A stretch of DNA of 64,000 bases from assembly GCA_000002445.1 (NCBI GenBank), contig CM000208.1, positions 1,280,001-1,344,000 on the forward strand, in the 5' to 3' direction. A program made the position numbers and the translations under genes. Shown here piece by piece: positions 4,138 through 53,628 of the stretch. Source of the DNA: Trypanosoma brucei (taxonomy: Eukaryota). The notes beneath the pieces are model-generated. The model searched no databases and was not told the origin of the DNA. It worked only from the letters and a program-made list of their open reading frames with translations. The stretch's first letter is position 1, and every line of letters starts with the position of its first letter.

Positions 4138-4227
4138 ATAAATGATACTCTGCTGCTGGAACTTACCAAATGGGATTTCTATTGATACAATCTTAGTTTA
4201 AGGCAGCCCTTTGAATCAAATATTTCT

Positions 4228-4572
4228 GCAGCTTGAAGTTCCCGTGTATTTTCTGAGGGCGAGACATTTATAACGTAAAAGTGGTATTATTTTCAGATAC
4301 ATCGCCTCTTTCCCTCTATCTCTCTTTCTCTGGCGGACGTTTATTTTTGTTTTATACACACCTCCAGTGGTAATTTTTTTTTCTTGTATTCTCTGCGTGC
4401 TGAAGTTCCACTTTGTTCCGTTCCATGTTATAGAGTAGTGTGAACTCAAATGTGTGAGGGAAATAAGAGCTGTCTGATTATCTTCTGTGTGTGTTTGTGT
4501 TTGTTCGGGAAGTTCACGTGCAGAAGTTTATGCGTTACATTATTTTGATACCACTGTATTATTGAAATACCT
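4228..4572 (+). repeat. Copy A of a ~350-bp dispersed repeat (copy B is at 13724..14093). It contains an internal (TG)n tract.
   Basis: Long stretches are identical to 13724..14093, including gaagttcccgtgtattttctgagggcgagacatttataacgtaaaagtggtattattttcagatacatcgcctctttccctctatctctc and tgtgaactcaaatgtgtgagggaaataagagctgtctgattatcttctgtgtgtgtttgtgt. Both copies give the same spurious minus-strand ORF peptide HYSITWNGTKWNFSTQRIQEK in the ORF track. Confidence 0.85.
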
Positions 4573-5586: not shown

Positions 5587-5607
5587 TATATATATATATA
5601 TATATAT
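5587..5607. repeat. (TA)n microsatellite
   Basis: Direct read. Confidence 0.95.
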
Positions 5608-6685
5608 TCAATCTTACGTTTTATGATAACAATATAAAGTTATTATTACCAATGCTACCATTGTTTTTTCTCCATGTGCCGTCTTAAACCCTTGTGAAAC
5701 GTCTTACAGCTCATGAAAGGGTGGCGGAAGGGAAACGAGAATAAATAACTTTTTCCTCTAACCGTAGTATTTGGTTTGCGCCCCACTACAGCCCCCCTCT
5801 TATACTTTTTCTTACCTTTTTAAAATTTTGTTTCAGCAACGTGGTAGCGCAGGGCACGAAGTGTTGCGTTGTGAACGGTCGCTCATTGTGCTACCAAAAC
5901 GATGGACAGAAGCGTATGAACACAGACGGACAAAAAATAATATATGTATGCATTTGTGTGTTTGTTTATGCCTTGTAGTCTATAAATGTAAAAGCAGTTA
6001 TGCACCTGATTCTGTTCGAAGTTGCTCTATAGGATCAGTGTGAGATGGAGTACTCGTGAGCAATACGGACACTAGTAATAATAATCATAATCACGATAAT
6101 TATGGTCGCAATTTTTATAAATTCTTCTCACTTGTATATATAAATATGTAATTGTTTACTCGCATGTGCAGGAGGACATACTCCTCAGGTATGGAGAGTG
6201 GTGAAAGACTCTGCCGTGGGGCGGGGGCTGCCAAATATTTGCGTGTGTGTATGGGCAGGTGTGCTTTGAGAAAAGGAAATGATGGATTACGGGAAACAGG
6301 TTGAATGATTCAATACCCCAATAACACTTACCGATGCTATTCAAACCTCTTCATCCAAAAGGGAGTGCATATATGATTTCCAACTTATTTTTTTCTCATT
6401 TTTATTCCTATTACCATTACTATGATTATTATTTCAAATCACTATGGGCACTTTCTTTCGGCTCAGTGTCAATTTGCATTTTATTTTTGTTTCTCAGTTT
6501 GTTAAGCAATGCAATACACTCGTTCCTGCGTCGTAGTGATAGTTTACTGCAGTATTCCCTCGTAGCTAAAAGATATGCACCTCCAACTTCATTGAGGGGA
6601 GCGCATGAGGCTAATTTATGTCTGCTCGTGGGAAGTACCCAGCGTAATAGCCCTCTCCATTGTTTGCTGCTCAGCCGTGACTGAT

Positions 6686-6780
6686 GATTTTTTTCTTTCT
6701 CTTACTCTTACTTTTCTTCTTTGTGTTGGTTTCTTGCCATTATAGGTTACAGCCGCTATTTTTTTTTTTTTTTTTGATAA
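6686..6780 (+). promoter_or_regulatory. Polypyrimidine tract, a candidate trans-splicing/polyadenylation signal upstream of the 6921 CDS
   Basis: ttttttctttctcttactcttacttttcttctttgtg ... ctatttttttttttttttt, followed by AG dinucleotides. Confidence 0.5.
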
Positions 6781-6920
6781 GGCCCTGCAAAGGGGATCGT
6801 AAGCGGAAGGGGTATACGGTGCGATTTGTTTGAGCGGGCCGTTCCTCTGCTTTATATTTCCTTCAGTTACCGTTCTTTTAGTGGAGGGGGGCACCTTAGC
6901 ACGAAGGGGAAATATAGGGG

Positions 6921-21465: not shown

Positions 21466-21631
21466 CGTATGCATGACATCTCTTAAGTCACTAAAGTGTT
21501 CCCCTCTCGTTCCACACTGTTTCCCCAACCCATTTGATTAACTCCTTTTGGTTGCTTGGTGAGTACGTATGTGTGGTTTTTGCGTATCATTTTATTTTAC
21601 ACACTACTCCTTCCATTCCCTCCTCGGCTAC

Positions 21632-21644
<13 letters not shown>

Positions 21645-21664
<20 letters not shown>
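21645..21664. repeat. (TA)n microsatellite
   Basis: Direct read. Confidence 0.95.
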
Positions 21665-21668
<4 letters not shown>

Positions 21669-24258
21669 CCTTCTGCACGCTAACATCCGCAGAACTGCTT
21701 ACTGCAGAATTTGGGCAGGTGTCACCACAGAATGTAACTACAGAGGTACGGGCGAGTGAGGGCCCTGGAGAGGAATGGTGATGCGCCCCACAAACTGCGC
21801 TATGTTTATTGTTACCATTATTATTTTCATTACCCCCACTACAGTTATCACTATTAATTCCCCTCCCGTTTTTTCCCTTCCTGCTCGTTGTCACCGCCTC
21901 CCCCAAACTCTCTGTTCGCACCTCACCTTTTTCTTTCCTTTCGTCTCTGCGTTTATCCGTCTACATTTTTGTTTCTTGATTCGCCTTTGACGTTGACTCT
22001 GAATTTTTTTGTATTTGGTTGCTTCTTTCCGAGTGTTTGATCGAAAATATCTTGCACATATAAATAAATAAATATTTATGTTTATTTGTTCGTTTGCCCA
22101 TGCGTGTGCTGAGGTGTGGTCGCTTCCCCTCCTTTTATTATTACCATTATCATTATGTTGTCATTGGTATTACTACTCTCCTGTTGGTGTCACTACGTTT
22201 TTTCTCAGTTTTTGCATTTTGAGAAAAATAGCGTTTTGATTCGTTGGAGCGGGGTGGTGGCGCGAACAAACAAACAAAAAAGAAACACAGAAAAAAGTAA
22301 GCACCAGCATTAACTCAGAATGAGAGAGTAATACACCTGCAGAATGCACGCACAAAACACAGGAAATGATACAAATCCAGTGAAATGAATGCGCAAAAAG
22401 ACTGAGAGAATCGAATATGTCTGAGCAGATAGTGAATATGCCACGTGCTCACGGAATTACATAGTCAAACGCACGCATTACTGAAAAGAAGAAAACCGCC
22501 CTACACTTTTCTTTTGTTCCCCACCCCCGCATTTATTTAACCGCACTCAAGCAATCATAAGTGGACATAAAGGTAAAAGAGTTGAGTATATGTATAAATA
22601 AATTCGTATATTTATAATTATGTAGGATAACTTATGTAAAAATGCAGACGGAGCTAACTAAGAGAGCGGGAGAAGAGAAGGAGAATGAACGGGGTGGCAC
22701 CTGAACGTTTTTTTTTTTCGTACATCGGCATATATATATATATATATATTTATTTATAAATATATACAAAACCGTTTCTGACGAAAGAGAAGAAAGCGAA
22801 GGAGGAAGGAAAAAAAGAGGGAAAGGAATTTATATACTTGTATATGTTTACTCGCGTGCACTTGCTGACTATGAGTAGATGGTTTAACCGCGTAGAAGGC
22901 TTCACCACACTTTTTAGGTCTTCTTCGTTTTCCCTCCCTTCCGTTCCTGTCGCTATATGTGTTCGCAATTCCCTTCATATTTTAATTATCTTCATCCTCA
23001 TTGTTGCCGTTGCCATTGTTGTGTCTTACTTCATTACATATATATATATATATGTACATGCACACTAACACACGTATTTGTTTTCTCTCTCTCTCCCTCT
23101 TCCTCTTAGTTTCTTTTTTCCTCTTCCCTATCCTTTGCTTAGCCGCTGCTTCTCTTATTGTTGCAACTGGCTGTAGAGTAGATGAGAGGAGTTAGGATCA
23201 TATCGACACCTGTGTGTCCGCATACGTGTGAACGAAATGTCTTTCTTAATACCAAACATACCTAAGACACGGAATATAATAGCATCACTTTTTTTTTTTT
23301 TAAAAAGGAAATAGTGTCAGTAGTGTCAACCATATTTGTGTGGCTTTACAACTACGCCTTCCCATGCGGGATGAGCTGCAAGAGAAGATTGTAAATAACG
23401 ATAATTAGAAGGAACGTACCAAAGATGATAAAGACAAAAAAACTTTTTTTTTCCCGTCTCTTCCTTTGAATGTGGGTTACCACCAGCCCTCAGAGGAGAT
23501 GAGGGATGTAGCGACTAAATGACCGAAAAAAAAGATGCACAGACATAAAAGTATGAAGGGGTATAACCAGTCAAACTTTGAGGGGAAAGGGGATAATTGC
23601 GGTCAAGGCGCCACTCTCGCGATAAATAATTAAATATAAATATCTGGTTTGATACACCTCTCGCTTCCTTCAAAAAGACATTTTTTTTTGCTTTTTGTTT
23701 TTTGTCAGCGTTTTGACTATTGTCATTGATTCTCTTATCGATAATTTGGCCTCATTTATATATCTCCGCTTTTTCACTTGCTTGAAAATTTTTTGTTTGA
23801 TTGTTTTTAGGTGAAGGGAAGTCAGAGTTTCTCTGGAAGCCGCAGCAGCAAAGAGGTATTGCCACCTATTTGTGGATTACTAAGAGTGCGCGCTTGCGTG
23901 GTGAACAGGGGGAACTGTCTTTTTTTCCCTTTTTCCTCCTTTGAGGGAAGAAAATAAAAAAAAAAGAAAAAGTAAAGACAAAAATAACCGGAAGACACAC
24001 CCGCCCACGCACACACACACACACAAAAAAAAACGAGGAAAGCAAAGAAAAGAGAAGAGTAAAGGGGGAAAAATAGCATCAAAAACAAAAGGACCAAGTG
24101 AAGGAAGGAACGTTGAACGATTTGCTTTGAGGTGAAGTGAGTGGCATTTTCTGCACATTCATATCACTAACTGACTCACTCATACATCTAAAACGAAGGA
24201 AAGAAAGAAAGGGAGGGAGTTTCAGGAAATTGTGTCGTGGTGAAAAGACGGAGAGGAA

Positions 24259-24284
24259 TATATATATATATATATATATATATA
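24259..24284. repeat. (TA)n microsatellite
   Basis: Direct read. Confidence 0.95.
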
Positions 24285-24571
24285 AGGGTGTGGGAGCAGT
24301 TGCCGCTACTTGTGCTGTTCTCTAGTGTTTAATCGCATAGTAACGGCGCGGGAAACTTGCCCACCCCCTCTGCTGTCTCAGGTGGTTCAACTGTATTGAC
24401 TGAAGCTGGTGCTAATTCAGACCCCGGAGAAGCGAGCAGGTCGAGGGGAAGTGGAATATATTTAAGTATATTTATACCACAGGAAGATACGGGCAGAGGA
24501 AACGGCAGGGGTAAAAATTGTGGCAAAAAAACAGAGGAAAATAAAGGAATAAGAAGGGGAAGGAAAACATC

Positions 24572-26539
24572 ATGTCTGGCACTAATCACCTCCGTCAGGT
24601 GGTTCCCGCAGCCGTTTACAACCCAATACCTCCTGCACCACCGTTCATGGTGTTTTGCGACCCGTACGCGAAGGTCGCCAACGCTACTGCAAAGTACAGG
24701 AATCAACCGCCAGTCGCACCGAACGCTGCCGCTGTTTTTCAGCAGCAACTCTACAGTTTACCTTTTCATGGTGTTGCTGGGGTTCCCGCCCCTATGCGTG
24801 AAGAAGAGGACGCTGATGGGTCTTTTGAGGTTCACGACAGCTGCCTCAAGGCACCTATTACTGTAGGGCGTCGAGTTGTAATCCCCACTACCGGAAGCCG
24901 TGGCCTTTTCAACTGTGCGCAGCTTCCAAGTAATGGAAACAGTGGTGGTAACTGCAATAACAACTCCAATAGTAACGGGAATGGTGGGAAAAGTTTCGCG
25001 CGAATTTGTGACGCCCATCCCGAGGGAAGGTGTATTTCAGGTGAACAGTGCCCTGACATTCATGTGCAGGCCGAGTACCTAACTGCTCAGCGACAGGAGA
25101 TGATATTCTGGCTTGAAAGTAAGGAACGTGAGTTCCAGAACACACTGCGTGCGGATCCGACCAAGATGTTCCGTGTGTTCTGTGCGGACCTTAAAGAGGC
25201 CGTGGAAGTCCCGATTAGCGCGTTGCAATTCACTAAAGGTCTATACGTGGATCCGTCGGTTCGGGCTCGCCGGGCGCGTGCGGGTCATCAGAACCAGTTC
25301 GCGATGTTAGCCTCGCAGTTACCAACTGCCTGCGGATTGTTTCTTAGCAACCCTTCGCAGTGCAGGTGGGCCCGTTGGTGTAACCAAATTCATGTCGACT
25401 TCACGTGGATGCAGACGAAGAAGAAAGAGTTTGAGTCGTGGTTCAACGAACTGGAGGGACGCTTCAATGCACTTCCCGATGACTACGAGTTTCATGTGCA
25501 CGACCCACAGCTTAAAATGGGTTTAAGAATTCCGAAAGCAAGCATTGCTGTCTTTTCTCGTGGTCTCTTTCAGGGATCGCCGAAGAAGGCGCCGAGTGTC
25601 TGCATGCTCTTTCAACGGGACCGGTGCACAGCAAATGTGTGCTGCAATCAAATTCATGTGATACCGCGGTACTTAGCTTTGCATCGACTTTTGATACAAA
25701 AAGGGGACAGCATTACTGAAGAGGAGCGCGGGAACATTATGAATCAAATGAAGGAGATACTGGAGTCGCAGAAGCGGAGCATGCAGGTTGCGGACGATGG
25801 TGACGCCAACTTTCTCGCAAGGGAGCTAAATCCTCAGGCCGTACCGTACGTCCCACCGCAGCCAACAAGTGTGTGGCGCACGGGGGGCTCTGCGGGTAGC
25901 AGCAGTCCACCACGGACAGCAGCGGCTCCCATTCCTGTTCCCGAGCCCCTTCCAACATTCCGCCAACCACCGCAGTGGAACGAACACTCACCTTCAGCTG
26001 CTGTGGATGGCTCTCCGTACGCTTCCCCTCACCGACGCGTTGAAAGGTGTGGTAGCAGCGGCACGCGGGACTTGCACACCTGTTCCAATCCACTGGAAGA
26101 TTTGATTGAGTTCGTGGATGGGGACAAGTCGCGTACGTCTCTTCTCGCAAGTCAGAGTACAACGAGTCAGGCTAGTCGCAGTTGCAAGCACACCAATAAC
26201 CCTTATGCGTTTGGTGCGAGCTATAAATGTACCGCATCACCCACTTTTGGATGGGTCCAACCTGTTTACAGTGCAGCAAATAGCGGCTCGACACATCCAG
26301 CGAACCGCTCGTGGGGAAGTGGCAGCGTTACAGGCGGGTGTCAACCCATTCGAGTGCGTGTAGGAGGTGGTGGAATTATGGAACATGAACCGTTGGAGCC
26401 CTTTTCTTTGGATCAACACGATATGGGTGCCAGTCCCTTTGAATGTCGCTCACCAGCGCACCGGACGTTGGGATCAAGAACTATAGAAGACCGCCTCAGT
26501 TCTTCGCCAACGTGGAGTGCCACGCAGAAACAGAGATGA
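24572..26539 (+). CDS. CCCH-type zinc-finger protein with three C-x7-9-C-x4-5-C-x3-H fingers. It is a putative RNA-binding regulator with a Gln/Asn/Ser/Pro-rich C-terminal half.
   Basis: The three fingers are CDAHPEGRCISGEQCPDIH, CGLFLSNPSQCRWARWCNQIH and CMLFQRDRCTANVCCNQIH. The last two share a CNQIHV core. The rest of the protein is low-complexity, as is common in kinetoplastid ZC3H proteins. Confidence 0.75.
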   Translation: MSGTNHLRQVVPAAVYNPIPPAPPFMVFCDPYAKVANATAKYRNQPPVAPNAAAVFQQQLYSLPFHGVAGVPAPMREEEDADGSFEVHDSCLKAPITVGRRVVIPTTGSRGLFNCAQLPSNGNSGGNCNNNSNSNGNGGKSFARICDAHPEGRCISGEQCPDIHVQAEYLTAQRQEMIFWLESKEREFQNTLRADPTKMFRVFCADLKEAVEVPISALQFTKGLYVDPSVRARRARAGHQNQFAMLASQLPTACGLFLSNPSQCRWARWCNQIHVDFTWMQTKKKEFESWFNELEGRFNALPDDYEFHVHDPQLKMGLRIPKASIAVFSRGLFQGSPKKAPSVCMLFQRDRCTANVCCNQIHVIPRYLALHRLLIQKGDSITEEERGNIMNQMKEILESQKRSMQVADDGDANFLARELNPQAVPYVPPQPTSVWRTGGSAGSSSPPRTAAAPIPVPEPLPTFRQPPQWNEHSPSAAVDGSPYASPHRRVERCGSSGTRDLHTCSNPLEDLIEFVDGDKSRTSLLASQSTTSQASRSCKHTNNPYAFGASYKCTASPTFGWVQPVYSAANSGSTHPANRSWGSGSVTGGCQPIRVRVGGGGIMEHEPLEPFSLDQHDMGASPFECRSPAHRTLGSRTIEDRLSSSPTWSATQKQR

Positions 26540-26699
26540 TTGTGCCTCGTTACCATGGTGATTTGCTCAGGTGTTTTCTACTTGTACCTCCTTTGAGCTT
26601 TTCCCTGATCCCGCCTTTAAAAATTTTTTTTTCTAAAAATCTTTTCGTTCGTGCATTTTTATCCATTCTTGGTGTTTTTTCTTTTTAAATATCCGTTTC

Positions 26700-29600
26700 T
26701 ATTTTGCATCAGGTGCTTCAATTTTGCTTTATTTTTGCTGTTTGCAACTGCAGGAGTGCTGTAAGGGAGGGGGAAAGAAAAAGAAAAGTAGCATAATATC
26801 TTACTTTAGGAATATAACAGATGGAGGAGAGTTGTTTTTTTTTTCCCCCTCCTCCTCCTGCCTTTTCCCGTTTTTTGTCTTTTTTTTGTCTATTTTTAAC
26901 GAACCAAGTCAGGAAGGAAAACAAAGATAAAGTGATAAATGATTATACTATATTCCTATTTATATATATGTGTGCATATATATATAAATAAGCAAAATTT
27001 CGGGCGATTGTAAGCAAAATATATGAAATTTAATACTTGTAGCTAAACCATTACACAAATAATATAATTTCAAACGACTAAACTGCGAGTAATAATGAAC
27101 CAGACTAATTAAAAGGATATATATTTATTTATATTTATTTATATTGATTTCGTGGGGGAGAAGGGGGCGGGAGGGGGAAAATATAGATAAATATTTAATA
27201 AATTTTTTTTGTTTTAGAGAAGGAAACAATTTCTTTCAACGAAAAGAGGGAGGGGCAAAGGTGGGGTGAAAAAATAAAATTAGTTCATAGGTACAAGCAA
27301 CTAAATAAATTGCAGACCCGAGGTAAAGACAAATAATTTATAGAATACCACAACAACGACCAAATCGTGGTAAAGGTCTAAAGACGGTGAATAAAGGAGA
27401 AAAAGAAAAAGAAAAAGAAAATTGAGAGGGAAAAAAAACAGATGGTGAGGGGAGACAAATAAAACTTTCCTGCCGAGCTAGCTGAAAGGAAGGAAAGGAA
27501 ATGGATAAATTAATAAATAAATAAACGAAAACAATGACAAGAATGAGGGAGACAAAAATAGCGAAAAAAATAATAATAATACAAACTTAATAAGTAAGTA
27601 ACGGCAGAAACACCGCGGAAAAAAAAAAAGAGGAAAAAGGGTCGTTTCAAGGCGTTAAAGGGAAATAAAAGGGGGAAAAAAAACAAAGGAACCCACAAAA
27701 AAAAACAAATATAAGGTAAATGTTCAGATTTGTGTTTATTATGAATAAGTATGCGTTCGTGTGTGTCTGCAATGTAACAACACCAAAGGAAAAAAAAAGT
27801 GCGGGGGAGGTGGAGGAGAGGCGACAAAGAAAGAAAGCAAAAGCGAAAGAAAAAAAGAAAAAAAAGGGGAAAAGAAAGAAAGGGAGAAAGTGAAAACGAA
27901 AAAAAAAGGGAAAAGAAGTACGTGTTTTTCTGCTCGGAGATGATGATATGAAAATGATATGATATAATTTTATATGAAATCTTGACGAGTGGTGTAACTT
28001 AAATGGAAAGGGAAAATGGAAAAGAGAAAAAAAGAGGTCCATTGCATATGTGATGTGTGGCAGGGATGAAGGAAGTTAACTTTTGTTTCCCTTTTCCCAT
28101 CTTTTTTTTTTTACGTTATATCATTTCATATATTCTTAACTTTATGATTTTTGTTAATATTATCATTATCATTACTATCATCATTACCGTGGTTATTAGT
28201 TGATAATTCTCTCTTTCTCTTTCTCTTCTTGCTGCCCTCCTGCTTTTTTTTTCCTCTTTGTTTTTTATTCTTGTTTTGGATTGTTTTCCCCAATGTGTAC
28301 GGGACAGTTTCCTCCAAGTTTGAAAGGAAATGAAATAAATCATAATGATAAAAACAGAAGTAACGAGCGAGAAGAAAAAGGATGATGAAATGAAAAATGA
28401 AAATCACTGATTTGTGCATAAATAATTGATTATACTTTAAGAAAAAAAAAGTATTTGTACAGGCACCAATATATAACACTTATGTTTATAATACATATAT
28501 TTATATGAGACGTGCAGGCTCCTTGATATATGTGTGTGTGTTGACCCACACGTGTGCTAGCATGTTTTTTTTTGGTATTAGTTTCGCATTCGTTTTTTTT
28601 TCTTTCTCTTATAGGCTCCCTTCTGTTTTCGTTTTTGTTTTATTTCGAAACAATTTCTCCCCCCTCATTCCTTCCCATTTTCTAATCCTCTTTGTCAAGC
28701 TTACAACTCATCCTTCCACCTTGTGTGATTATTGTTATAAAAATTATTATTGTTACCGCGTTTACTATCCTTATTATTGATATTGTATTAATACATACCG
28801 TGTTTCCTTCTTTTTTTCTTTTTTTTCTTTTAATTCCGGTGCATGAAGGCCTGCAAACTTTTTTTTGTGGTGATTGTGATGTGACCATCCCTTTGTGCGT
28901 GTGTGTTTTCTTTCATTTGTTTGCAAGGCAGTATTATTATTATTATTATTATTATTTCTCTCTTTTCCTTCAGCTTCTTGTTTGCTGGCTTGGGAATCTC
29001 GCGTAGTTTCTGCTATTTATCATTTTATTTGCTTTGCTGTAGTTTCTTTCTTTCTTTTTTTATCTTTTTTTATCTTTCTTTTTTTTTTTTTAAAAAAGAA
29101 CCTTTTGTTTATTTTGTTGTTGTATTCCGTGGAGGGGGAAGGAGGAACAGAATTGAGTGGTGGAGGAAAAGAAAATGGAAAGAAGAAGGAAAAAAAAAAC
29201 AAAGTGGCGTACGTTCGTATCTGTGCGTTTGTATGTTCGGCCGTTTTCTTTTTCTTTTGTTTTTTTTTGCTCTTTTTTTGTCTTCTTTTTAAAAATTTTT
29301 TTTTGTTTTACCTTTGCATTCTCTGTATTGCTGTTTTGTTTTCCTTTTTCGTTTTTGCTGTTGTCCATTACTCTTTGGTTCCGGTGTTGTGAGCACTGAG
29401 GCGCATGCGGAGATCAAGAAAATATCATGTATACATATATATTAATATATACGTATATTTGAATGTACAGCTATACACACAGGTATGCGTATGTATAATA
29501 CAAACCTGTTTCGGGAAACATATCAGACAAGAAGGTTACATGTATGAATATAAATATAATATATAATATATAAAAATAAATAAATAAATATATACATTGA

Positions 29601-32600
29601 AAGTTTGTACATTTTGCATGCATAAATATGAATCTGCATATGTGAATGAATGCGTGTCTATGTGCGTTTGTGTGTGCACGATTATGTACAAAAATGTATA
29701 GGAAAAATAAAGGGAATGTAAGTGTGTATTGGCATTGCATCATGCCGTCATCATCTTCTCTCATTCCTTATTTCTCTTTTATTTGTGATTTGTGATTTTG
29801 ATTCATTTCTTCTTTGTTTTTTTTTTATTGGTTTGGTTTGCTATCAGTTGTCCGGTTTCGCTTCGTTTACACGCCACCTGAGAACTTCCCCATCTCTCCC
29901 TCCACGACACAAGATAAAAAAAAATAATTATTTGTATGTATGTGTTTCTTTTCTTTTCTTTTCTTTTTCCCCCTCCTTCTTGTTTTATGCGTCGTTCTGC
30001 TTGTCAGGAGTTAGTTTTTTATTTTTATTTTTGTTTTTGTTTTTGTATGACTGTGCTTGTGCTTGTGCTTATGTGTGAAGGAAAATAAAAAAAAGAAGGA
30101 TGAAAATACAAAGAGATGGAGACGGTGATTTGTATGCTTGGAAAGGTATGAAGGGAACAAAAGAGGGAATGTTGAACACACAAAACAAACATAAACACAA
30201 AGGAAAAAAAACGAAATTCTTCAATATTTGTTGTTTATTTAATTGCTTTTTTGTATGTATGTTTGTATGTTTGTTTGTGTGTGTCTTTACCTTTATTATT
30301 ATCTATTTTTTTTTTTTGGTTTTCTCTTTCTCTTCTGTCAACTTTCCTCTCCTGTTGTTTACCGTATTTGTTTGCTTCGGTATTTGTGAGTGCTTGTATA
30401 TGTTTGTGTAGAGGTGATGATGATGATGGTGATGAAAGCAGTTTGGTGTCATTATTGCGTTATAACAATAATAATAATAACAATAATAAGAGCTACAAGT
30501 AAGAAGGAATAGAAGAGAAAGAGAGAAAATGAAATGCTTGTGCTTGTGCTTGTGGTTGTGTTTTTTTTTGCTTTTTGTTTTTTGTTTTTAAATATTATCT
30601 CACGTACACATGAACACTTTACACTTAACTCTGCAAGCAATGGGTGAGATGATGCAAAAGGAAGAAAAAGGATACTAAATTAAGTAAATAAATGCAAATG
30701 AAGGGGAGGGGAGGGGAGGAGGAGGAGTGGGAGGGGAAGGAAAAGGAGAAAAAAAAAAAGAATAATATATACTTGACAACAGTAGCAGCAGCAACATTAG
30801 TTTAGTTAGCGATTCTTTTAACCGTGCTGCGCCCGCACGTTGGTGGCACTCCTTCATTTTTTTTTTTCGCCTTCGGGTCTCTTTCACGCACTGATGTTGC
30901 CACATTTGGTCCGTGTGTCTTTTTGTTTTTTTTTCTTTTTACTTTCAAAGGCGTTTTATCATCGGCTATGACAAAAGTCGGTGTGTTATTTCCTACGACT
31001 GTTTGTGTGACTCCGAACTGTTACTTTCTTCCCATTTCTGATTCCCCTCGCCTTTTACAGTGAGACTTTTTGAAAAAAAATAAACAAAAAACAACAATAT
31101 GTATAATATATTACATGAAAAGTTGATAAAATAAATAAATAAATATATTCATATAACACTTCTCCATATTTTCAAATATTTCCCCTTCCTCTTTTTCTTT
31201 TTATCGTTTCGCGTTTGCTGTATATCTCTTAAGTTTTGAAGAGAATTGGAAGAATGATGATTTTTTTTTTTTAAATATATATATATTTAACGTTGTTGTT
31301 GTTGTTTACATTTTTTTTTCTTTTTTGAAGGGGAGGGGGAAGGGCGTTGCTGCTGCTGCTGCTGTTATTGTCACTTTTGTTGTTATTGTTATTGCCGTCA
31401 CCGGCTCCCTCTTATGACTTGTGGTAATTGAAGGGAAGCTTAACATAAACAACGAAAAAAAAAAGTGAAGCAAAAAACGAAAAAAAAAAGAAAATAAAAC
31501 AAGAAAAAAGAGGGAGAAAAAATGTTTGTTGCGGGTTCTCACCACATTTTTCATTTTATTTTGTTTTTTTTTTAAAAAGAAAAAAATCACTTGATTTCAC
31601 GATACTTCCAGTTTGTTTACTTTTTTTTCTTTTTTTCTCTGTTATTTGATTCCATCACCCCAGAAGGTCCAGGGAATGGGGCAGGGGAAGGGAGGAGAGG
31701 GGTAAGAGTTCTTCTTGAAGGAGGAAACTATGAGAATTTAATTTATTACATTTGTGCGGTTCCTGTTTTTTCTTTTTTTTTCTTTTTTTTTCTTTTCAGG
31801 GAAGGGAGGGGAGGGGAGGGGAAGGAGAATGTTACCGCCACCCAGATATGAAGTAAGGATGCGAGGAAGAGGGAAACATGGCGATGGTGATGATGATGAT
31901 GATTTTTTTTTTTTTAAATCGTGACTTTTATGATAATAATGATAATGGTGGCAGCGTTGGTGCCGTTATGACGAAACGTGACTCGAGCGATATGAAAATA
32001 GCGGTACACAAATGCCGAAGGAGCCAAATGTTTGGTGTGTGTGTTCATATATATTTTGTACGTACGTGTGATCGTGTTCTCTCTTCCTCCATTTTTTCTT
32101 TTAACTTTTTTTCTTTTAGTTTTTTTTGTTTCCAATTTACGCGTATATGTGAGGGGCAAGCACATGTATATATGTACTTGGTAAAGTAAGTGGAGCGTGT
32201 GAAATTGCTTGAATAACGAGAAATTTTGTGTGGCAAAAAAAAAAATAAACAAAATAAAACGAAGTAACAATGGGAAAGTGACAAACTGTACTAACAAGTA
32301 CCTCCAGATTTGTAGTGCGATCCCATTATTGTTCCATTTCTTTCCCCCTTTTTGCTTTTAAATTATTTTTATGTAATGTATATATGCCTGTGTGCTTGTA
32401 CTTTTGTTTGCTTTACTGTTACAGTACTGTGTGAGCAGCTGAAGATTGTGTGAATGAGAGTGTGCATATTTGTGGTGAAGAGGGAAGCAAAGAGACTGTT
32501 ATATTTGTACAAAGTGGGCTGGTCTCCTGCTCTTCCACCTTTTTCTTTTTCTTCATCCGCTCTCTTTTTTTTTTCTTCTCTACTTGAGTTACTGCTCCAC

Positions 32601-33000
32601 CTCTTTTTTTTTTTGAAAAAATTATTCGGGGAAATAATTCACCTTAAGAAATGCTGAAGAGCAACGAACGATAGCAATGAGGATGAGTCCTTTTATATCT
32701 ACTTTTCTTTCTTTTTTTTTCACTTTATATATTCAAAGAGAAGTGTTCACGTGAACTGAACGCTATACTTTTTATGATTGTTTGTTGTCATTCATCCAGT
32801 AGTGAGTGACTTCAAACAACTCGTTTGAATGCCACTTGCCCAAAGACTTTCTACTCTATTTTCAATGCATCAGCGGGGTCACCAGTCAATTCCTGCTTCA
32901 TTAGCTTCCGTTAATTTCTCCACCATTTCTTTCTTTTCTCTTTTCTCTTTTCTTTTTTTTTCTTTTTCCCCCTTCTCTACCGACAATATTTTTAGTTAGA
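26700..33000. repeat. 6.3-kb gene-free low-complexity block with alternating purine-rich and pyrimidine-rich strand segments, homopolymers, G-tracts and tri/tetranucleotide repeats
   Basis: No ORF here has a non-degenerate composition. The + strand is A/G-rich over about 27100-28100 and T/C-rich over about 28100-29400 and about 32500-33000. Motifs include gggaggggaggggagg, (TA)n and (AAT)n. Confidence 0.8.
32905..32998 (+). promoter_or_regulatory. Strong polypyrimidine tract plus AG, a candidate trans-splice acceptor region for the 33088 CDS
   Basis: ctccaccatttctttcttttctcttttctcttttctttttttttctttttcccccttctctacc ... tttttag. Confidence 0.55.
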
Positions 33001-33087
33001 GAAGTATCGGGTTTCACCTTTACCTCCATTCCACACGCCTGGGTGTTTAAAGAGATATAAAAAGAAGAAGAGGGAGTGTAAATAATT

Positions 33088-36000
33088 ATGACTGGAGGCA
33101 ATAGCGGGATCTCTGCTACTGGCGCGGGAAGTGTTGTATTGCTTCCACGCGGAGTGTACGCTACGGTGTTTGAACCAATAAATAGTGCGGAAGAGCAACA
33201 GAAAGTGGCGCTTGAGGACTCCGTTAGACGGCCACTTGACGACCATCAAAAAGCGAACATTTCGTCGATGGCAGGGGCGGCTGGACGTTTTGAAGCGCAG
33301 CGGCGACTGCGTAAGGCAATGGCTGCAAAGGAGGCAACTATGATTCAACTTAAGCAACTTATTAGAGAATATTCGAGTCCAGGTGAGGGACCTAATCGCA
33401 GTAAGGAGCAGCTAAAAATGGTAAATGATAAGGTAACGGGATGTTCTCTAGGTGAAATAAATGGTATACCATCACCAGCGGTAGCACTGGGACATATTGA
33501 AAAAGATATTTCTGTGCATCCAGCCGCTGATTTGGCGTGCGATGCGGAGGTTTTGCGCCTCAAACTTGAGAACGAAAAATTATCTGTGAAGGAAACAGCC
33601 CTTAAAAGGGAACGTGAGCAGCTGGAAAGGCTCGTTGTTGACCTTCGAAAAGAGTTGGAAGCTTCTGGAGATGCCCTCCGTGATCAAACCGAGCTTCTAC
33701 AAACCATACGCATCAGCGAGGGCCGCCACGGGTCACATGTCTTCTTCAAACACAAACCTGAAAAACTGTCGGAGCCCATAACCACTGCGGCCCCATCTGA
33801 AGAGAGGAAAAAGGGAGGTGAGAAGGATGATGAAAATGAGAAGGGGAATAAGGAAGAAGATAAGAAAGAGGAAAAGAAAAAAGATACCATATGTGAAGGG
33901 GATAAGGTGTCTGACATGCTGAAAAGAATAGAGGCTTTGGAGGGACTTCTCGCCCTCGAGGAAAAAAGGCGGGAAGCGGTGGAAAAGCGGTGTGAGGAAC
34001 TTCTGGCGATGTCTTCCGAGAGGAAAGCAGGAGATGAGCCGACTCCTCTTGCAGCAAGGACGGCAGATTGGGGTACCGTTGCGGGTCGCCGCGAGGAGGA
34101 GGGCGGTAAAACTTTAAAGACTGATCCAGCTTGTAAAGAAAATCTTTTTGAACCGGCACCTGCGGTAGAGGACAGCCCGGGGAAAAGCGCGAAGGACGGC
34201 AGGGACACAAATCTCAATCGTGTCATTCGCGTGTTGGTGGAAAAGCACCGTGCTGCACGGGTTGTGTGGACGAGGCGTGAGAAGGAGTTCAAGCGGTACA
34301 CGCAAGTACTTGAGTCCGTCATGACACGAATGGAGCGTGGTCTCCCTGCCGAGGAACCAGGCAAAGCAGCTTTATTTAATCTCACCGTATCCCTTGTTGC
34401 ATGTGAGAACCTACTTAACCGGCGTAACAATGGTGCTCTTTTTATTGATCCCTTTGTTGTGCTCTATTCACCAATTGGCGAAAAGGCACTTGAGACTCTG
34501 CCCCGTGAGGACACCAATTGCCCTCAGTTCACAAATGCTGGGGACACTGTTACCTTCAAAGTGGTGAGGGGTTTACCGTGGAGTCTCACATTTGAGGTCT
34601 ATTCAAGAGGTGTAAACAATACTGGTCTCTTTTTGGGACAGGCAAAAGTACCTGTTGAGTCTTTCTTGGAGGACGTTGCAGTAGACAAACGTTTCCAACG
34701 AAAGGTAAGGCTTTGTCCACGCGACCGTGAACCGGATAGTGAAGTTATTCAAAACGCTCATCGCCTAGGTTCCATTATTTTCACTGCATGTATTTCGGTG
34801 GTGGGGAGGGATCGAAGAAGTTCTTCTATTCCTGCGGTTTCTCCACGCAACTCTGCCATCACCTCCAGTGGTTGCCGGCGGTCGGTGCTCGACGTGAAGC
34901 GGTCAATGGAAGCTGAACATTATGATACCGTCAACGTCGACGTGAGTTGTAGTGCAGGGGAAGAGGCGAGGTGTTGCTCTCCTGCCGACGCTGTAATTCT
35001 ACGCGTGCTGAGTGCTAAAGGTGTTATAAAGCGTCCTTCGGGCGTGTATTCAAATCCTTACGTTGTAGCGTTCGACAGTGGCACCGGTGAGGAGTTGTTG
35101 CACACGCCACCCGTTATGGCATCATCCAACCCTCAGTGGGAGCATTCGGCGCAGGGTAGATGTATAATCCGTCCCGATCACGCGAGAGGGTCTGTCACCT
35201 TCCGCGTATATGACCACGACCAAGAGGGGAAGGACCGGTTCCTGGGCGAAGCTCATCTTCCAAAACGTCTGATATTTTCCGGGAAGGAGTTGCATGAACT
35301 GAAACTAGAGCCACGAAGGGATGAATCGTTAGAGTACATTCGCCGCAAACAGCACAAACTTGGAAAGTTGGTGGTTCAGTGCGTCCGTAAGAATGCTAGG
35401 AGTGAGGGTGAAAGAAGCCGAACCCAGTCCGGGGGAAGTGTGTGCAGGTCAGCACCTTATCCTGGAGCGGTATGTGGATTCACCGAGTCATCAAAGATTC
35501 TCCACGAGGATTCTGTTACAAATTGCAAAACAATTTTATTGGACGCTTTGCCTATTCGGGTTACAGTCGAGGCATGCAACGGACTCTGCATTGATCGGTC
35601 GGGTGGATATGTAGTGGTGTGTATTGTTTCACCTAATCTGGTGGAGTACATGACCTCCGCAGTATGTGGGACAGCCGACCCCTCGTGGACCGGCACGGAC
35701 AACTCCGCAACGTTTTCTGTGCACCCTCTAAGCAGTGGCGCCATCCAATTTCATGTAATGGCTCAAGATAGAAAATGCGGCTACGGTGGAAGAATCGTCG
35801 GCTGTGCACAAATATCCACTCTGGACCTCTTCCGTCGAGGGTTTGGCAGGAAGAAACTACAGCTTGGAGGCCCTCCAGATCGCGCGGATATCTTACGAAG
35901 GCAAAGGCAGTCGGGTCAGGGGACGATCACTGTGTTTTTTTCGCTTCTTTCCTCTCCCCCAGTGCGTGGTGAAGATGAAGTCACTTGCTCTCAGGAAAAA

Positions 36001-36495
36001 CGAGCGGCGGCGGTGTCTCCTGCTGCCGTGACTAACGGCCAGAGTGAGCCGTCCTTGACAAGAAGACAAGATCGCAACACACCCGCTTCTACAGGAGTTG
36101 CAATGTCAATATACATCAAGGAAGCTCATGATCTTTTGGACTACGACAAGTCCATGTTTAATGTGCTTGGAGTAACGGATCCACGAGTAACAGTATGGGT
36201 AGGGCCCAATCACGCATTCACAACACCTGAAAAACGTGATACTGTGAACCCTAAGTGGAGTTTAGAAGAAGCTGAGTTCCAGGTTTCTGTTGAGCGAGGG
36301 CATGTTATACGATTTGAGGTTCAGGATGTAGACACAACTGGTTTTGATAGCTTGGGATCTGCTGTAGTAGATGCCTCTGAGGTGATAGAGTCGCCGGGTG
36401 CGCGTACACTTCCAGTGATGCTACGGGAAAAGCAGTACGGAACATTGACGGTTGTTTTTACCCTCGTCGATAAGAAGGATTCGACCAAAGAGTGA
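33088..36495 (+). CDS. Large (1135 aa) coiled-coil protein with at least three C2-like domains
   Basis: The N-terminal third is heptad-like (LRLKLENEKLSVKETALKREREQLERLVVDLRKELEA). A poly-acidic/Lys block reads EKGNKEEDKKEEKKKD. The C2-like segments are LRVLSAKGVIKRPSGVYSNPYVVAFDSG...VTFRVYDHDQEGKDRFLGEA, IYIKEAHDLLDYDKSMFNVLGVTDPRVTVWVGPNH...IRFEVQDVDTTGFDSLGSA and VTVEACNGLCIDRSGGYVVVCIV. Confidence 0.75.
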   Translation: MTGGNSGISATGAGSVVLLPRGVYATVFEPINSAEEQQKVALEDSVRRPLDDHQKANISSMAGAAGRFEAQRRLRKAMAAKEATMIQLKQLIREYSSPGEGPNRSKEQLKMVNDKVTGCSLGEINGIPSPAVALGHIEKDISVHPAADLACDAEVLRLKLENEKLSVKETALKREREQLERLVVDLRKELEASGDALRDQTELLQTIRISEGRHGSHVFFKHKPEKLSEPITTAAPSEERKKGGEKDDENEKGNKEEDKKEEKKKDTICEGDKVSDMLKRIEALEGLLALEEKRREAVEKRCEELLAMSSERKAGDEPTPLAARTADWGTVAGRREEEGGKTLKTDPACKENLFEPAPAVEDSPGKSAKDGRDTNLNRVIRVLVEKHRAARVVWTRREKEFKRYTQVLESVMTRMERGLPAEEPGKAALFNLTVSLVACENLLNRRNNGALFIDPFVVLYSPIGEKALETLPREDTNCPQFTNAGDTVTFKVVRGLPWSLTFEVYSRGVNNTGLFLGQAKVPVESFLEDVAVDKRFQRKVRLCPRDREPDSEVIQNAHRLGSIIFTACISVVGRDRRSSSIPAVSPRNSAITSSGCRRSVLDVKRSMEAEHYDTVNVDVSCSAGEEARCCSPADAVILRVLSAKGVIKRPSGVYSNPYVVAFDSGTGEELLHTPPVMASSNPQWEHSAQGRCIIRPDHARGSVTFRVYDHDQEGKDRFLGEAHLPKRLIFSGKELHELKLEPRRDESLEYIRRKQHKLGKLVVQCVRKNARSEGERSRTQSGGSVCRSAPYPGAVCGFTESSKILHEDSVTNCKTILLDALPIRVTVEACNGLCIDRSGGYVVVCIVSPNLVEYMTSAVCGTADPSWTGTDNSATFSVHPLSSGAIQFHVMAQDRKCGYGGRIVGCAQISTLDLFRRGFGRKKLQLGGPPDRADILRRQRQSGQGTITVFFSLLSSPPVRGEDEVTCSQEKRAAAVSPAAVTNGQSEPSLTRRQDRNTPASTGVAMSIYIKEAHDLLDYDKSMFNVLGVTDPRVTVWVGPNHAFTTPEKRDTVNPKWSLEEAEFQVSVERGHVIRFEVQDVDTTGFDSLGSAVVDASEVIESPGARTLPVMLREKQYGTLTVVFTLVDKKDSTKE

Positions 36496-53326: not shown

Positions 53327-53628
53327 GCGTAGGAACTCCACCATAGGAAGTATTGTTTGTCATGCTTTTATTCGTGGTTGTTGTCTCTTTTTTCTGTTTT
53401 CATGACTTGGTTTAATTTGTTGTAGGAACCACCTCGTCAGTATCTGGTGGAAGACCCCATGTATCACATTGTCTACCGTTGGTTTTATCACTTTAAAAAT
53501 CTCTTTCATTTTCTATCACCCCTCGGTTTGACATAATCGCTGCGCACTATTCTTATTGTTCGCGCGGTGAAGTGTGTCAACGTTGTGTTTCTGTAGTATT
53601 ACGTTGTGAGGAATTGTATTCCCCGAGA

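What the first reader, a model, noticed from the sequence alone, without database searches (positions are those of the whole stretch)
26600..33000. 6.4-kb gene-free low-complexity block downstream of the CCCH zinc-finger gene: an ultra-long 3'UTR or an internal transcription-unit boundary
No credible ORF exists between the CCCH gene stop (26539) and the next gene (33088). Strand composition is strikingly asymmetric. The + strand is purine-rich from about 27100 to 28100 (gaaagaaaaaggg tracts) and then flips to pyrimidine-rich. The block also holds G-tract (GGGAGGGGAGGGG) motifs at about 27154, 30702, 31318 and 31798, plus trinucleotide runs. A second 3-kb gene-free block (21500-24550) lies upstream of the same gene. 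In trypanosomes, regulatory RNA-binding proteins often carry multi-kb 3'UTRs that control developmental expression. Alternatively, purine-rich tracts on the coding strand inside a same-strand gene array could mark a head-to-tail termination/re-initiation site.
Basis: partly seen in the sequence, partly recalled or inferred. Interest (0 to 1): 0.5.

Follow-up and report, generated by a model that had tools for sequence, protein, structure and literature searches.

The report
Long 3'UTR of trypanosome ZC3H32 gene
The 6.4-kb "gene-free" block is the already annotated 6.3-kb 3' untranslated region of the Trypanosoma brucei RNA-binding-protein gene ZC3H32, so it is an ordinary member of a known class of long regulatory 3'UTRs rich in purine and pyrimidine tracts.

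Summary
Window 26540-33087 has no coding potential, about 33% G+C, a 1-kb purine-rich stretch followed by pyrimidine-rich sequence, sense-strand G-tracts and many microsatellites.

The window is T. brucei TREU927 chromosome 10 (window coordinate = chr10 coordinate minus 1,280,895). The upstream ORF is ZC3H32 (Tb927.10.5250). Trenaman et al. 2024 (PMC11405848, Supplementary Data 1) list its 3'UTR as Tb927_10_v5.1:1307435-1313738. That is window 26540-32843, or 6304 nt. The paper revised or added 4703 3'UTR annotations by hand from RNA-seq, spliced-leader and poly(A) reads. Klein 2017 gave no 3'UTR length for this gene.

The UTR ends 83 nt before the 53-nt polypyrimidine tract and AG that serve the next gene. 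This is the usual coupling of polyadenylation to downstream trans-splicing.

The composition matches the published class of long 3'UTRs of mRNAs that are translated better in bloodstream forms. These carry many A-rich polypurine and U-rich polypyrimidine tracts and are typical of RNA-binding proteins and kinases. The distal UTR fragment was a positive hit in that paper's reporter screen. ZC3H32 mRNA is also a DRBD18 target.

I found nothing that supports an internal transcription start or stop, although chromatin marks could not be checked.

Verdict: already known, low interest.

The parts
24572..26539 (+). ZC3H32 (Tb927.10.5250) coding sequence, 655 aa. A cytosolic mRNA-binding repressor with CCCH zinc fingers.
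   Evidence: 100% identical to XP_822770.1 of T. b. brucei TREU927. Klein et al. [quoted passage not shown]
26540..32843 (+). Annotated 3'UTR of ZC3H32 mRNA, 6304 nt (Tb927_10_v5.1:1307435-1313738).
   Evidence: Columns UTR_Start and UTR_End in Supplementary Data 1 of PMC11405848. The coordinate offset of 1,280,895 was checked on two stop codons and one Sau3AI site. The annotation method is described. There is no coding potential.
27040..28075 (+). Purine-rich segment with dense A-rich polypurine tracts (for example 27393-27421, 27617-27641, 27845-27890, 27898-27918, 28018-28037).
   Evidence: Purine fraction 0.67-0.75. It holds 106 of the block's roughly 227 A-rich polypurine 9-mers. It matches the pPuT element of PMC11405848.
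28080..29400 (+). Pyrimidine-rich segment with U-rich polypyrimidine tracts (28207-28230, 28593-28610, 28803-28831, 29043-29091, 29240-29350).
   Evidence: Purine fraction 0.31-0.45. There are 29-42 U-rich polypyrimidine 9-mers per 500 nt. The tracts are partly complementary to the neighbouring purine tracts.
27154..27177 (+). Sense-strand G-tract and canonical G-quadruplex motif GGGGGAGAAGGGGGCGGGAGGGGG.
30700..30762 (+). G-rich polypurine tract (GAAGGGGAGGGGAGGGGAGGAGGAGGAG, then GGGAGGGGAAGGAAAAGGAG...).
31327..31344 (+). G-rich polypurine tract GAAGGGGAGGGGGAAGGG, followed by a (TGC)6 run.
31672..31702 (+). Sense-strand G-quadruplex motif.
31766..31829 (+). A 32-nt polypyrimidine tract directly abutting a 32-nt G-rich polypurine tract (AGGGAAGGGAGGGGAGGGGAGGGGAAGGAGAA). 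The pyrimidine tract with the following AG (31798) is a candidate internal or cryptic processing signal.
29945..29981 (+). The longest internal polypyrimidine tract (37 nt, next AG at 30006). It is one of about 12 internal tracts of at least 18 nt that could act as alternative trans-splicing and polyadenylation signals.
   Evidence: The role is inferred by analogy with RBP10 and other DRBD18-dependent 3'UTRs (PMC9380746).
32318..33015 (+). Genomic fragment recovered as a positive regulatory hit in the bloodstream-form reporter screen (Tb927_10_v5.1:1313213-1313910). It overlaps the distal 525 nt of the 3'UTR and includes the native downstream splice site.
   Evidence: Supplementary Data 1 of PMC11405848. 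Read counts were 40, 37, 42, 52, 58 and 58 under positive selection and 0 in all six negative-selection samples. log2 fold change was 5.59 and FDR 0.052, inside the paper's FDR < 0.1 cut-off.
32844..32925 (+). Spacer of 82 nt between the annotated poly(A) site of ZC3H32 and the downstream polypyrimidine tract.
32926..32995 (+). 53-nt polypyrimidine tract (32926-32978), the longest in the block, and the first AG (32994-32995). This is the predicted spliced-leader acceptor signal of Tb927.10.5260 and would give a 5'UTR of about 92 nt.
   Evidence: The screen fragment that ends at 33015 is flagged as containing the downstream splice site.
33088..36495 (+). Next gene, Tb927.10.5260, a 1135-aa protein with three C2 domains.
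   Evidence: Its synteny is conserved in T. equiperdum, T. vivax, T. theileri and T. cruzi.
21466..23000 (+). Annotated 3'UTR (1535 nt) of the upstream gene Tb927.10.5240 (cNMP-binding and C2 protein).
   Evidence: Supplementary Data 1 of PMC11405848 lists the UTR as 1302361-1303895.
23081..23141 (+). Polypyrimidine tracts (27 nt and 20 nt) with AG at 23108 and 23141, starting 81 nt after the upstream poly(A) site. This is the probable main spliced-leader acceptor of ZC3H32.
   Evidence: The screen fragment that ends at window 23925 is flagged as including the downstream splice site.

Best explanation
The block is the 3' untranslated region of the ZC3H32 mRNA (window 26540-32843, 6304 nt). It is followed by the short spacer, polypyrimidine tract, AG acceptor and 5'UTR of the next gene, Tb927.10.5260.

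RNA polymerase II reads through the whole region as part of one polycistronic unit. All 16 genes of the window lie on the + strand. The ZC3H32 mRNA is cut and polyadenylated about 80-150 nt upstream of the strong 53-nt polypyrimidine tract that directs trans-splicing of the next mRNA.

The low-complexity content is the working part of the UTR.
- Dense A-rich polypurine tracts are concentrated at 27.0-28.1 kb and recur at 29.2, 30.5-30.8 and 31.4-31.8 kb. They are the published positive translation elements.
- The equally dense U-rich polypyrimidine tracts can pair with them. In the published model they mask the purine tracts in insect-stage cells. This would give the expression seen for ZC3H32: protein about 20-fold and mRNA 2-4-fold higher in bloodstream forms, with better translation there.
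- The same internal polypyrimidine tracts are potential cryptic processing signals. DRBD18 binds ZC3H32 mRNA and holds its level and translation down in procyclic forms. It probably keeps these internal signals unused, so that the full-length UTR is made.

What is shown: gene identity, lack of coding potential, tract statistics, the position of the processing signals, the published UTR coordinates, the published reporter hit and the published DRBD18 dependence.

What is inferred: that the purine and pyrimidine tracts of this particular UTR mediate its stage regulation, and that DRBD18 acts here through poly(A)-site choice.
For: Identity. The ORF is 100% identical to TREU927 XP_822770.1. ZC3H32 is Tb927.10.5250.

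Annotation. The UTR is listed as 1307435-1313738 in Supplementary Data 1 of PMC11405848. That paper's 3'UTR annotations were curated by hand from RNA-seq plus spliced-leader and poly(A) reads. The offset was checked on the stop codons of Tb927.10.5240 and Tb927.10.5250 and on a GATC at the fragment start.

Geometry. The UTR ends 83 nt before the longest polypyrimidine tract of the block, 32926-32978, with AG at 32994.

Non-coding. No Rfam family or tRNA was found.

Class features.
- A-rich polypurine 9-mers occur at 34.7 per kb and U-rich polypyrimidine 9-mers at 49.8 per kb. Both are the highest of the 15 spacers in the window. Coding sequence has 1.9 and 0.9 per kb.
- There are 12 polypurine and 10 polypyrimidine tracts of at least 20 nt, against about 0.05 expected.
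- The published class is: longer than 2 kb, dense in both tract types, translated better in bloodstream forms, and enriched for mRNA-binding proteins and kinases.
- The distal fragment was a positive hit in the reporter screen.

Pairing. There are 67 inverted purine/pyrimidine tract pairs within 400 nt of each other. Of five local segments folded, four had z-scores of -1.6 to -3.5 and one -0.4.

Regulation from the literature.
- Protein is about 20-fold higher in bloodstream forms, mRNA 2-4-fold, and translation is better there.
- The mRNA rises 28-fold and is stabilised on DRBD18 RNAi in procyclic forms.
- DRBD18 binds the mRNA, and its translation and protein level rise on knockdown.
- DRBD18 is proposed to mask internal polypyrimidine tracts of long 3'UTRs.

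Evolution. The spacer downstream of ZC3H32 is the longest in its neighbourhood in every species checked:
- T. brucei: 6548 nt
- T. equiperdum: 6426 nt
- T. vivax: 4790 nt
- T. theileri: 3326 nt
- T. cruzi: 3379 and 3429 nt
- L. major: 6087 nt
Against: - I could not view RNA-seq, spliced-leader or poly(A) read tracks myself. The 6304-nt figure rests on one published table.
- Tables in Klein et al. 2017 give the 3'UTR length as 'null' and one sheet gives an mRNA length of 2729 nt. That number is most likely a default estimate made before the UTR was annotated, but I did not confirm this.
- No Northern size for the mRNA was found.
- About a dozen internal polypyrimidine tracts followed by AG mean that shorter isoforms and UTR-derived RNAs may coexist with the full-length mRNA.
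- Only one reporter-screen fragment from this UTR appears in the part of the table that is held, and it lies at the distal end rather than in the purine-rich kilobase.
- No sequence block is conserved outside the Trypanozoon group. Against T. equiperdum the block diverges faster than coding sequence, mostly by indels in tracts. Constraint therefore acts on length and composition at most.
Confidence: 0.9

Rival explanations
1. The block contains a head-to-tail boundary between two polycistronic units. Pol II would terminate after ZC3H32 and re-initiate before Tb927.10.5260, with the sense-strand purine and G tracts as part of the signal.
For: - The spacer is unusually long.
- G-runs and GT-rich sequence on the coding strand have been linked to T. 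brucei start regions (PMC5579346). The block has sense-strand G-tracts and GT-rich patches at about 30.0-30.6 kb.
- 57 non-divergent start regions exist genome-wide, so such sites are real.
Against: - A mature 3'UTR is annotated across the entire block, up to the processing signal of the next gene.
- No tRNA or other small-RNA gene is present.
- G+T on the coding strand is 0.562, mid-range for the window's 15 spacers (0.51-0.60).
- The G-quadruplex motifs are absent from the orthologous spacers of the other species, while the long spacer itself is conserved.
- The prior is about 57 sites among roughly 8000 gene junctions.
- A-rich polypurine tracts have a documented role in 3'UTRs.
Confidence: 0.03
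2. The region is transcribed but is not one functional UTR. In wild-type cells the main ZC3H32 mRNA uses a proximal poly(A) site. The remainder gives separate spliced, polyadenylated non-coding RNAs (long non-coding RNAs or UTR-derived fragments).
For: - About 12 internal polypyrimidine tracts of at least 18 nt are followed by AG.
- Such internal processing is documented for other long 3'UTRs when DRBD18 is depleted.
- More than 1500 transcripts change poly(A) site on DRBD18 knockdown.
- Earlier tables had no UTR length for this gene.
Against: - Supplementary Data 1 of Trenaman 2024 gives a single 6304-nt UTR.
- In the published cases the short forms appear mainly after DRBD18 loss, not in wild-type cells.
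- The long spacer is conserved in length across species.
Confidence: 0.07
3. The block hides an unannotated small protein-coding gene or a structured RNA gene.
For: Several ATG ORFs of 67-131 aa exist. Gene callers placed a 125-aa ORF in the T. vivax spacer.
Against: - All ORFs have negative codon scores and low-complexity translations.
- No cross-species protein similarity was found.
- There is no Rfam hit at gathering thresholds and no tRNA.
Confidence: 0.01

Closest known systems
RBP10 (Tb927.8.2780) 3'UTR of T. brucei, given as 7.3 kb (8.5 kb elsewhere in the same paper)
   Same: - It is a multi-kb 3'UTR of an RNA-binding-protein mRNA specific to bloodstream forms.
- It is dense in both A-rich polypurine and U-rich polypyrimidine tracts.
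- The mRNA is bound and controlled by DRBD18.
- It contains many internal polypyrimidine tracts.
   Different: - The RBP10 UTR has been dissected experimentally, with at least six independent bloodstream-specific regions and three reporter-screen hits. Only one distal screen fragment is on record for ZC3H32.
- No alternative-processing data specific to ZC3H32 were found.
The class of long 3'UTRs (over 2 kb) with high densities of polypurine and polypyrimidine tract motifs, from mRNAs translated better in bloodstream forms (Trenaman et al. 2024, PMC11405848)
   Same: - Length is 6.3 kb.
- It has the highest densities of both tract types among the window's spacers.
[quoted passage not shown]
- It gave a positive hit in the same screen.
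   Different: - I could not confirm that ZC3H32 is one of the 44 listed transcripts.
- My densities use a 9-mer proxy, not the paper's motif scan.
ZC3H20, ZC3H21 and ZC3H22 3'UTRs (over 4 kb)
   Same: They are long 3'UTRs on mRNAs for CCCH zinc-finger regulators, used for stage control.
   Different: Those are insect-stage or stumpy-stage genes that are repressed through multiple RBP10 sites, UA(U)6. The ZC3H32 UTR has a single UAUUUUUU in 6.5 kb, as expected for a bloodstream-form mRNA.
Non-divergent (head-to-tail) Pol II transcription start regions of T. brucei
   Same: Both lie between same-strand genes and carry G and T runs on the coding strand.
   Different: Start regions are defined by chromatin (H2A.Z, H2B.V and acetylated histones over about 10 kb) and by primary-transcript starts. 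Here a mature mRNA is annotated across the region, and GT content is not above the local background.

Membership tests
Trypanosomatid mRNA 3'UTR | It starts at the stop codon of a gene and lies on the same strand within a polycistronic unit. | tested here: met
   The ZC3H32 stop codon is at 26539. All 16 genes of the window are on the + strand.
Trypanosomatid mRNA 3'UTR | It has no protein-coding potential. | tested here: met
   Codon score is -0.35 against +0.2 to +0.39 for genes. No cross-species peptide similarity was found.
Trypanosomatid mRNA 3'UTR | It ends a short distance upstream of the polypyrimidine tract and AG used to trans-splice the next mRNA. | tested here: met
   The annotated end at 32843 is 83 nt before the 53-nt tract 32926-32978, with AG at 32994.
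Trypanosomatid mRNA 3'UTR | It has continuous RNA coverage and poly(A)-containing reads at the 3' end. | not testable with these tools
   This rests on the UTR coordinates listed in PMC11405848. The read tracks were not available here.
Long pPuT/pPyT-rich 3'UTRs of mRNAs translated better in bloodstream forms (Trenaman 2024) | The 3'UTR is longer than 2 kb. | tested here: met
   6304 nt.
Long pPuT/pPyT-rich 3'UTRs of mRNAs translated better in bloodstream forms (Trenaman 2024) | It has more than 20 A-rich polypurine and more than 20 U-rich polypyrimidine motif hits per kb (FIMO, p < 0.01). | tested here: inconclusive
   A 9-mer proxy gives 34.7 and 49.8 per kb, the highest of 15 spacers. The paper's motif matrices were not available, so the numbers are not directly comparable.
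Long pPuT/pPyT-rich 3'UTRs of mRNAs translated better in bloodstream forms (Trenaman 2024) | Translation efficiency is more than 3-fold higher in bloodstream than in procyclic forms. | not tested
   Klein 2017 states that the mRNA is translated more efficiently in bloodstream forms and that the protein is about 20-fold higher. The exact ratio was not retrieved.
DRBD18-dependent long 3'UTRs (RBP10-like) | DRBD18 binds the mRNA, and its abundance or translation changes on DRBD18 depletion. | not testable with these tools
   From the literature: 28-fold up and stabilised; enriched in RNA immunoprecipitation, with translation efficiency and protein up.
DRBD18-dependent long 3'UTRs (RBP10-like) | The 3'UTR contains internal polypyrimidine tracts that can act as cryptic processing signals. 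| tested here: met
   Twelve internal tracts of at least 18 nt are each followed by AG within 120 nt.
DRBD18-dependent long 3'UTRs (RBP10-like) | Poly(A) sites shift to proximal positions, or UTR-derived RNAs appear, after DRBD18 loss. | not tested
   No data specific to ZC3H32 were found.
Head-to-tail Pol II start/termination region | It is enriched for H2A.Z, H2B.V and H4K10ac (start) or for base J, H3.V and H4.V (stop). | not testable with these tools
   No list of start-region coordinates could be retrieved.
Head-to-tail Pol II start/termination region | The coding strand is GT-rich above the local background. | tested here: not met
   G+T is 0.562, against 0.51-0.60 for the other 14 spacers.
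Head-to-tail Pol II start/termination region | No mature mRNA spans the boundary. | tested here: not met
   The annotated 3'UTR spans the block to within 83 nt of the next gene's splicing signal.

The most novel reading that the evidence does not exclude
The sense-strand G-rich tracts (GGGAGGGGAGGGG and relatives) might form RNA G-quadruplexes. These would act as a regulatory layer separate from the A-rich polypurine tracts, for example in temperature-dependent control of translation or of internal processing-site use. Seven of the nine matches in the window are in this UTR, and it holds three canonical G-quadruplex motifs. None of these motifs is present in the orthologous spacers of T. vivax, T. 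theileri, T. cruzi or L. major.
Probability: 0.08. Interest if true: 0.35.

Novelty: already known. Interest (0 to 1): 0.1.

Why it matters
It matters little beyond correct bookkeeping. The block should be read as part of the ZC3H32 gene, not as empty DNA or a transcription-unit boundary.

For specialists, the ZC3H32 UTR is a good but undissected second example, after RBP10, of a very long 3'UTR of a bloodstream-form regulator. It carries an almost pure 1-kb purine-rich module followed by pyrimidine-rich modules. That layout could be used to test the published 'polypurine tract masking' model and DRBD18-controlled poly(A)-site choice.

Tried and rejected
- Cross-species nucleotide comparison of the spacer (blastn, word size 9) found only low-complexity matches outside the Trypanozoon group. 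No conserved element could be defined.
- Rfam at gathering thresholds and a tRNA scan of the whole window found nothing.
- Six-frame peptide comparison with the orthologous spacers found nothing.
- I looked for a published mRNA or 3'UTR length in the Klein 2017 tables. They give 'na/null' in one table and 2729 nt in another, which is probably a default estimate. I did not use that number.
- Supplements of the DRBD18 papers and the ZC3H28 paper are not held as text.
- I looked for published transcription-start-region coordinates or polycistron membership for Tb927.10.5250 and Tb927.10.5260. The SPARC paper's supplements hold only proteomics. The histone-tail paper's supplements do not list these genes. 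The chromatin test of the rival therefore remains undone.
- The T. congolense orthologue (P0002) has no contig on record, so the closest informative outgroup spacer was not available.
- A count of RBP10 motifs, UA(U)6, gave 1 in 6.5 kb. By my own estimate from base composition about 2 would be expected, so this is not informative.
- The L. major comparison is weaker than the others. Its next called gene downstream is not a detectable orthologue of the C2 protein.


Full report
**What the window is**

All large ORFs lie on the + strand. There are 15 complete ORFs, plus a frame of more than 3500 codons that is open from 53497 to the end of the window. Composition alternates between about 50% G+C in ORFs and 30-40% G+C between them, as in trypanosome polycistronic units.

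The ORF at 24572-26539 (655 aa) is 100% identical to T. b. brucei TREU927 XP_822770.1 and its T. equiperdum counterpart. This is ZC3H32 (Tb927.10.5250), a cytosolic mRNA-binding repressor with three non-canonical CCCH fingers (PMC5435347).

Its neighbours are identified as follows:
- an Arf-like GTPase, Tb927.10.5230;
- a 1702-aa protein with cNMP-binding and C2 domains, Tb927.10.5240;
- a 1135-aa protein with three C2 domains, Tb927.10.5260;
- a protein kinase;
- a DEAH helicase.

**Checking the observation**

- The gap 26540-33087 is 6548 nt, the longest of the 15 inter-ORF spacers in the window. The others are 366-3106 nt.
- A codon-usage log-likelihood trained on the window's genes gives +0.20 to +0.39 per codon for every real gene. 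The best of six frames inside the block averages -0.35 and never exceeds 0.01.
- ATG ORFs in the block reach at most 131 aa and translate to low-complexity strings.
- The purine-rich kilobase has a purine fraction of 0.67-0.75 at 27040-28040. It is followed by pyrimidine-rich sequence with a purine fraction of 0.31 at 28540-29040.
- The G-tract motif GGGRGGGGAGGGG, allowing 1 mismatch, occurs 9 times in the window against 0.07 expected. Seven of these are in the block, all on the sense strand.
- Pure polypurine and polypyrimidine tracts of at least 20 nt number 12 and 10, against about 0.05 expected under a first-order Markov model.

**What it is**

Supplementary Data 1 of Trenaman, Tinti, Wall and Horn 2024 (Nat Commun, PMC11405848) lists, for Tb927.10.5250, UTR_Start 1307435 and UTR_End 1313738 on Tb927_10_v5.1, + strand.

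The same table gives the UTR of Tb927.10.5240 as 1302361-1303895. The two UTR starts are 5074 nt apart, exactly as the two stop codons are in the window (21465 and 26539). Window coordinates are therefore chr10 coordinates minus 1,280,895. The start of the listed genomic fragment, 1313213, also falls on a GATC (Sau3AI) site at window 32319-32322.

The annotated ZC3H32 3'UTR is therefore window 26540-32843, or 6304 nt. The authors state that they revised or added 4703 3'UTR annotations by hand in Apollo, using RNA-seq coverage and reads that carry spliced-leader or poly(A) sequence. Klein 2017 recorded no 3'UTR length for this gene.

The sequence agrees with this end point. The longest polypyrimidine tract of the whole block (53 nt, 32926-32978) begins 83 nt after the annotated end. 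The first AG follows at 32994, about 92 nt before the ATG of Tb927.10.5260. In trypanosomes polyadenylation is set by the downstream trans-splicing signal (PMC9380746), so this is the expected geometry.

The block is thus the 3'UTR (96% of it) plus the inter-mRNA spacer, the splicing signal and the short 5'UTR of the next gene.

**Why it looks the way it does**

Long 3'UTRs of several kb are characteristic of T. brucei mRNAs for RNA-binding proteins and protein kinases (PMC6597758).

[quoted passage not shown] They also showed that mRNAs translated better in bloodstream forms are over-represented among 3'UTRs longer than 2 kb with high densities of both A-rich polypurine and U-rich polypyrimidine motifs. 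They proposed that the pyrimidine tracts base-pair with and mask the purine tracts in insect-stage cells.

My measurements fit this class.
- With a simple proxy (all-purine 9-mers with at least 6 A, and all-pyrimidine 9-mers with at least 6 T), the block has 34.7 and 49.8 hits per kb. Both are the highest among the window's 15 spacers. Coding sequence has 1.9 and 0.9.
- Purine and pyrimidine tracts are often mutually complementary. There are 67 inverted pairs within 400 nt of each other.
- Of five local segments folded, four had z-scores of -1.6 to -3.5 against dinucleotide shuffles and one -0.4. This is compatible with the masking model but is not a test of it.

ZC3H32 itself fits the expression profile. 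Its protein is about 20-fold and its mRNA 2-4-fold higher in bloodstream forms, and it is translated better there.

The distal UTR fragment, window 32318-33015, was a positive regulatory hit in the bloodstream-form reporter screen. It gave 40-58 reads under positive selection and none under negative selection, with FDR 0.052, inside the paper's FDR < 0.1 cut-off.

**The DRBD18 connection**

ZC3H32 mRNA rises 28-fold and is stabilised when DRBD18 is depleted in procyclic forms (PMC4477658). DRBD18 co-precipitates the mRNA, and its translation efficiency and protein level rise on knockdown (PMC10653379).

DRBD18 is proposed to bind polypyrimidine tracts inside long 3'UTRs. This would stop the splicing machinery from using them, so that distal poly(A) sites and full-length UTRs are maintained (PMC9380746; PMC11260167).

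The ZC3H32 UTR contains about a dozen internal polypyrimidine tracts of at least 18 nt, each followed by AG. It is therefore a plausible substrate. I found no data on poly(A)-site choice specific to ZC3H32, so this step is inferred.

**Comparative evidence**

Gene order Arf, cNMP/C2, ZC3H32, C2 protein, kinase, helicase is conserved in T. equiperdum, T. vivax, T. theileri and T. cruzi.

The spacer downstream of ZC3H32 is always the longest of its neighbourhood:

| Species | Spacer downstream of ZC3H32 (nt) |
|---|---|
| T. brucei (window) | 6548 |
| T. equiperdum | 6426 |
| T. vivax | 4790 |
| T. theileri | 3326 |
| T. cruzi | 3379 and 3429 |

Most of the other neighbouring spacers in these species are 0.7-1.4 kb; the spacer directly upstream of ZC3H32 is 1.4-2.0 kb (3.1 kb in T. 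brucei).

L. major also has a 6087-nt spacer, but the next gene there is not a detectable orthologue of the C2 protein.

There is no alignable sequence outside the Trypanozoon group apart from low-complexity matches. Between T. brucei and T. equiperdum, coding sequences are 99.85-99.98% identical. The block is 97.8-99.5% identical, with many indels in tracts. What is conserved is therefore a long, tract-rich UTR, not a particular sequence. The G-quadruplex motifs are specific to T. brucei.

**The rival: an internal transcription boundary**

I could not obtain chromatin tracks or a list of start-region coordinates. The indirect evidence is nevertheless against it.
- A mature mRNA is annotated across the block.
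- No tRNA or other RNA gene is present.
- Coding-strand G+T is 0.562, in the middle of the range for the other spacers.
- The purine tracts have a documented UTR function.
- Only 57 non-divergent start regions exist genome-wide.

I put this rival at about 3%. A more realistic caveat is that shorter isoforms or UTR-derived RNAs coexist with the full-length mRNA (about 7% as the main state in wild-type cells).

**The upstream 3-kb block**

It is composite. Window 21466-23000 is the annotated 3'UTR of Tb927.10.5240. Polypyrimidine tracts at 23081-23129, with AG at 23108 and 23141, follow 81 nt later. A screen fragment that ends at window 23925 is flagged as containing the downstream splice site. 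ZC3H32 therefore appears to have an unusually long 5'UTR, of at least 647 nt and probably about 1.43 kb, with 13 upstream ATGs. This was not verified further.

**Verdict**

The feature is already annotated and belongs to a well-described class. Novelty: already known. Interest: low.

Noticed in passing
window 23001-24571: ZC3H32 seems to have a very long 5'UTR. The upstream gene's annotated 3'UTR ends at 23000. Polypyrimidine tracts with AG lie at 23081-23141. A published reporter fragment ending at 23925 is flagged as containing the downstream splice site. This implies a 5'UTR of at least 647 nt and probably about 1.43 kb, against a genome median of 82 nt. The stretch 23001-24571 contains 13 ATGs.
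   Followed up: partly
window 53497-64000 (+): A single reading frame is open for more than 3500 codons and runs off the end of the window. This is a giant gene that the ORF lister does not report because it is truncated by the window edge. It explains the apparent lack of genes after 51.3 kb.
   Followed up: partly
window 31766-31829: A 32-nt pure polypyrimidine tract abuts a 32-nt G-rich polypurine tract with no spacer. The junction AG (31798) makes this the most splice-acceptor-like internal site of the UTR, and it sits directly in front of a G-quadruplex motif.
   Followed up: no
window 26763-26859: A 26-nt purine tract (AAGGGAGGGGGAAAGAAAAAGAAAAG) and a 25-nt pyrimidine tract (TTTTTTTTTTCCCCCTCCTCCTCCT) lie 46 nt apart, just after the stop codon. 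They are predicted to pair into an 18-bp stem (-32.5 kcal/mol, z = -1.6).
   Followed up: partly
L002 14736-15113 (T. vivax): Gene callers placed a 125-aa ORF with no Pfam hit in the T. vivax spacer downstream of ZC3H32. Nothing in the T. brucei block matches the T. vivax spacer at the peptide level, so it is probably spurious.
   Followed up: partly
window 4138-6920: This 2.8-kb spacer carries six UAUUUUUU (RBP10-type) motifs and two sense-strand G-quadruplex motifs (4902-4925 and 5351-5371). It may be the 3'UTR of a procyclic-specific mRNA downstream of the 315-aa ORF at 3190-4137.
   Followed up: no
L006 12356-18442 (L. major): L. major also has a spacer of about 6.1 kb after its ZC3H32 orthologue. 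The next called gene (888 aa, no Pfam hit) is not a detectable orthologue of the trypanosome C2 protein, so local synteny differs downstream.
   Followed up: partly
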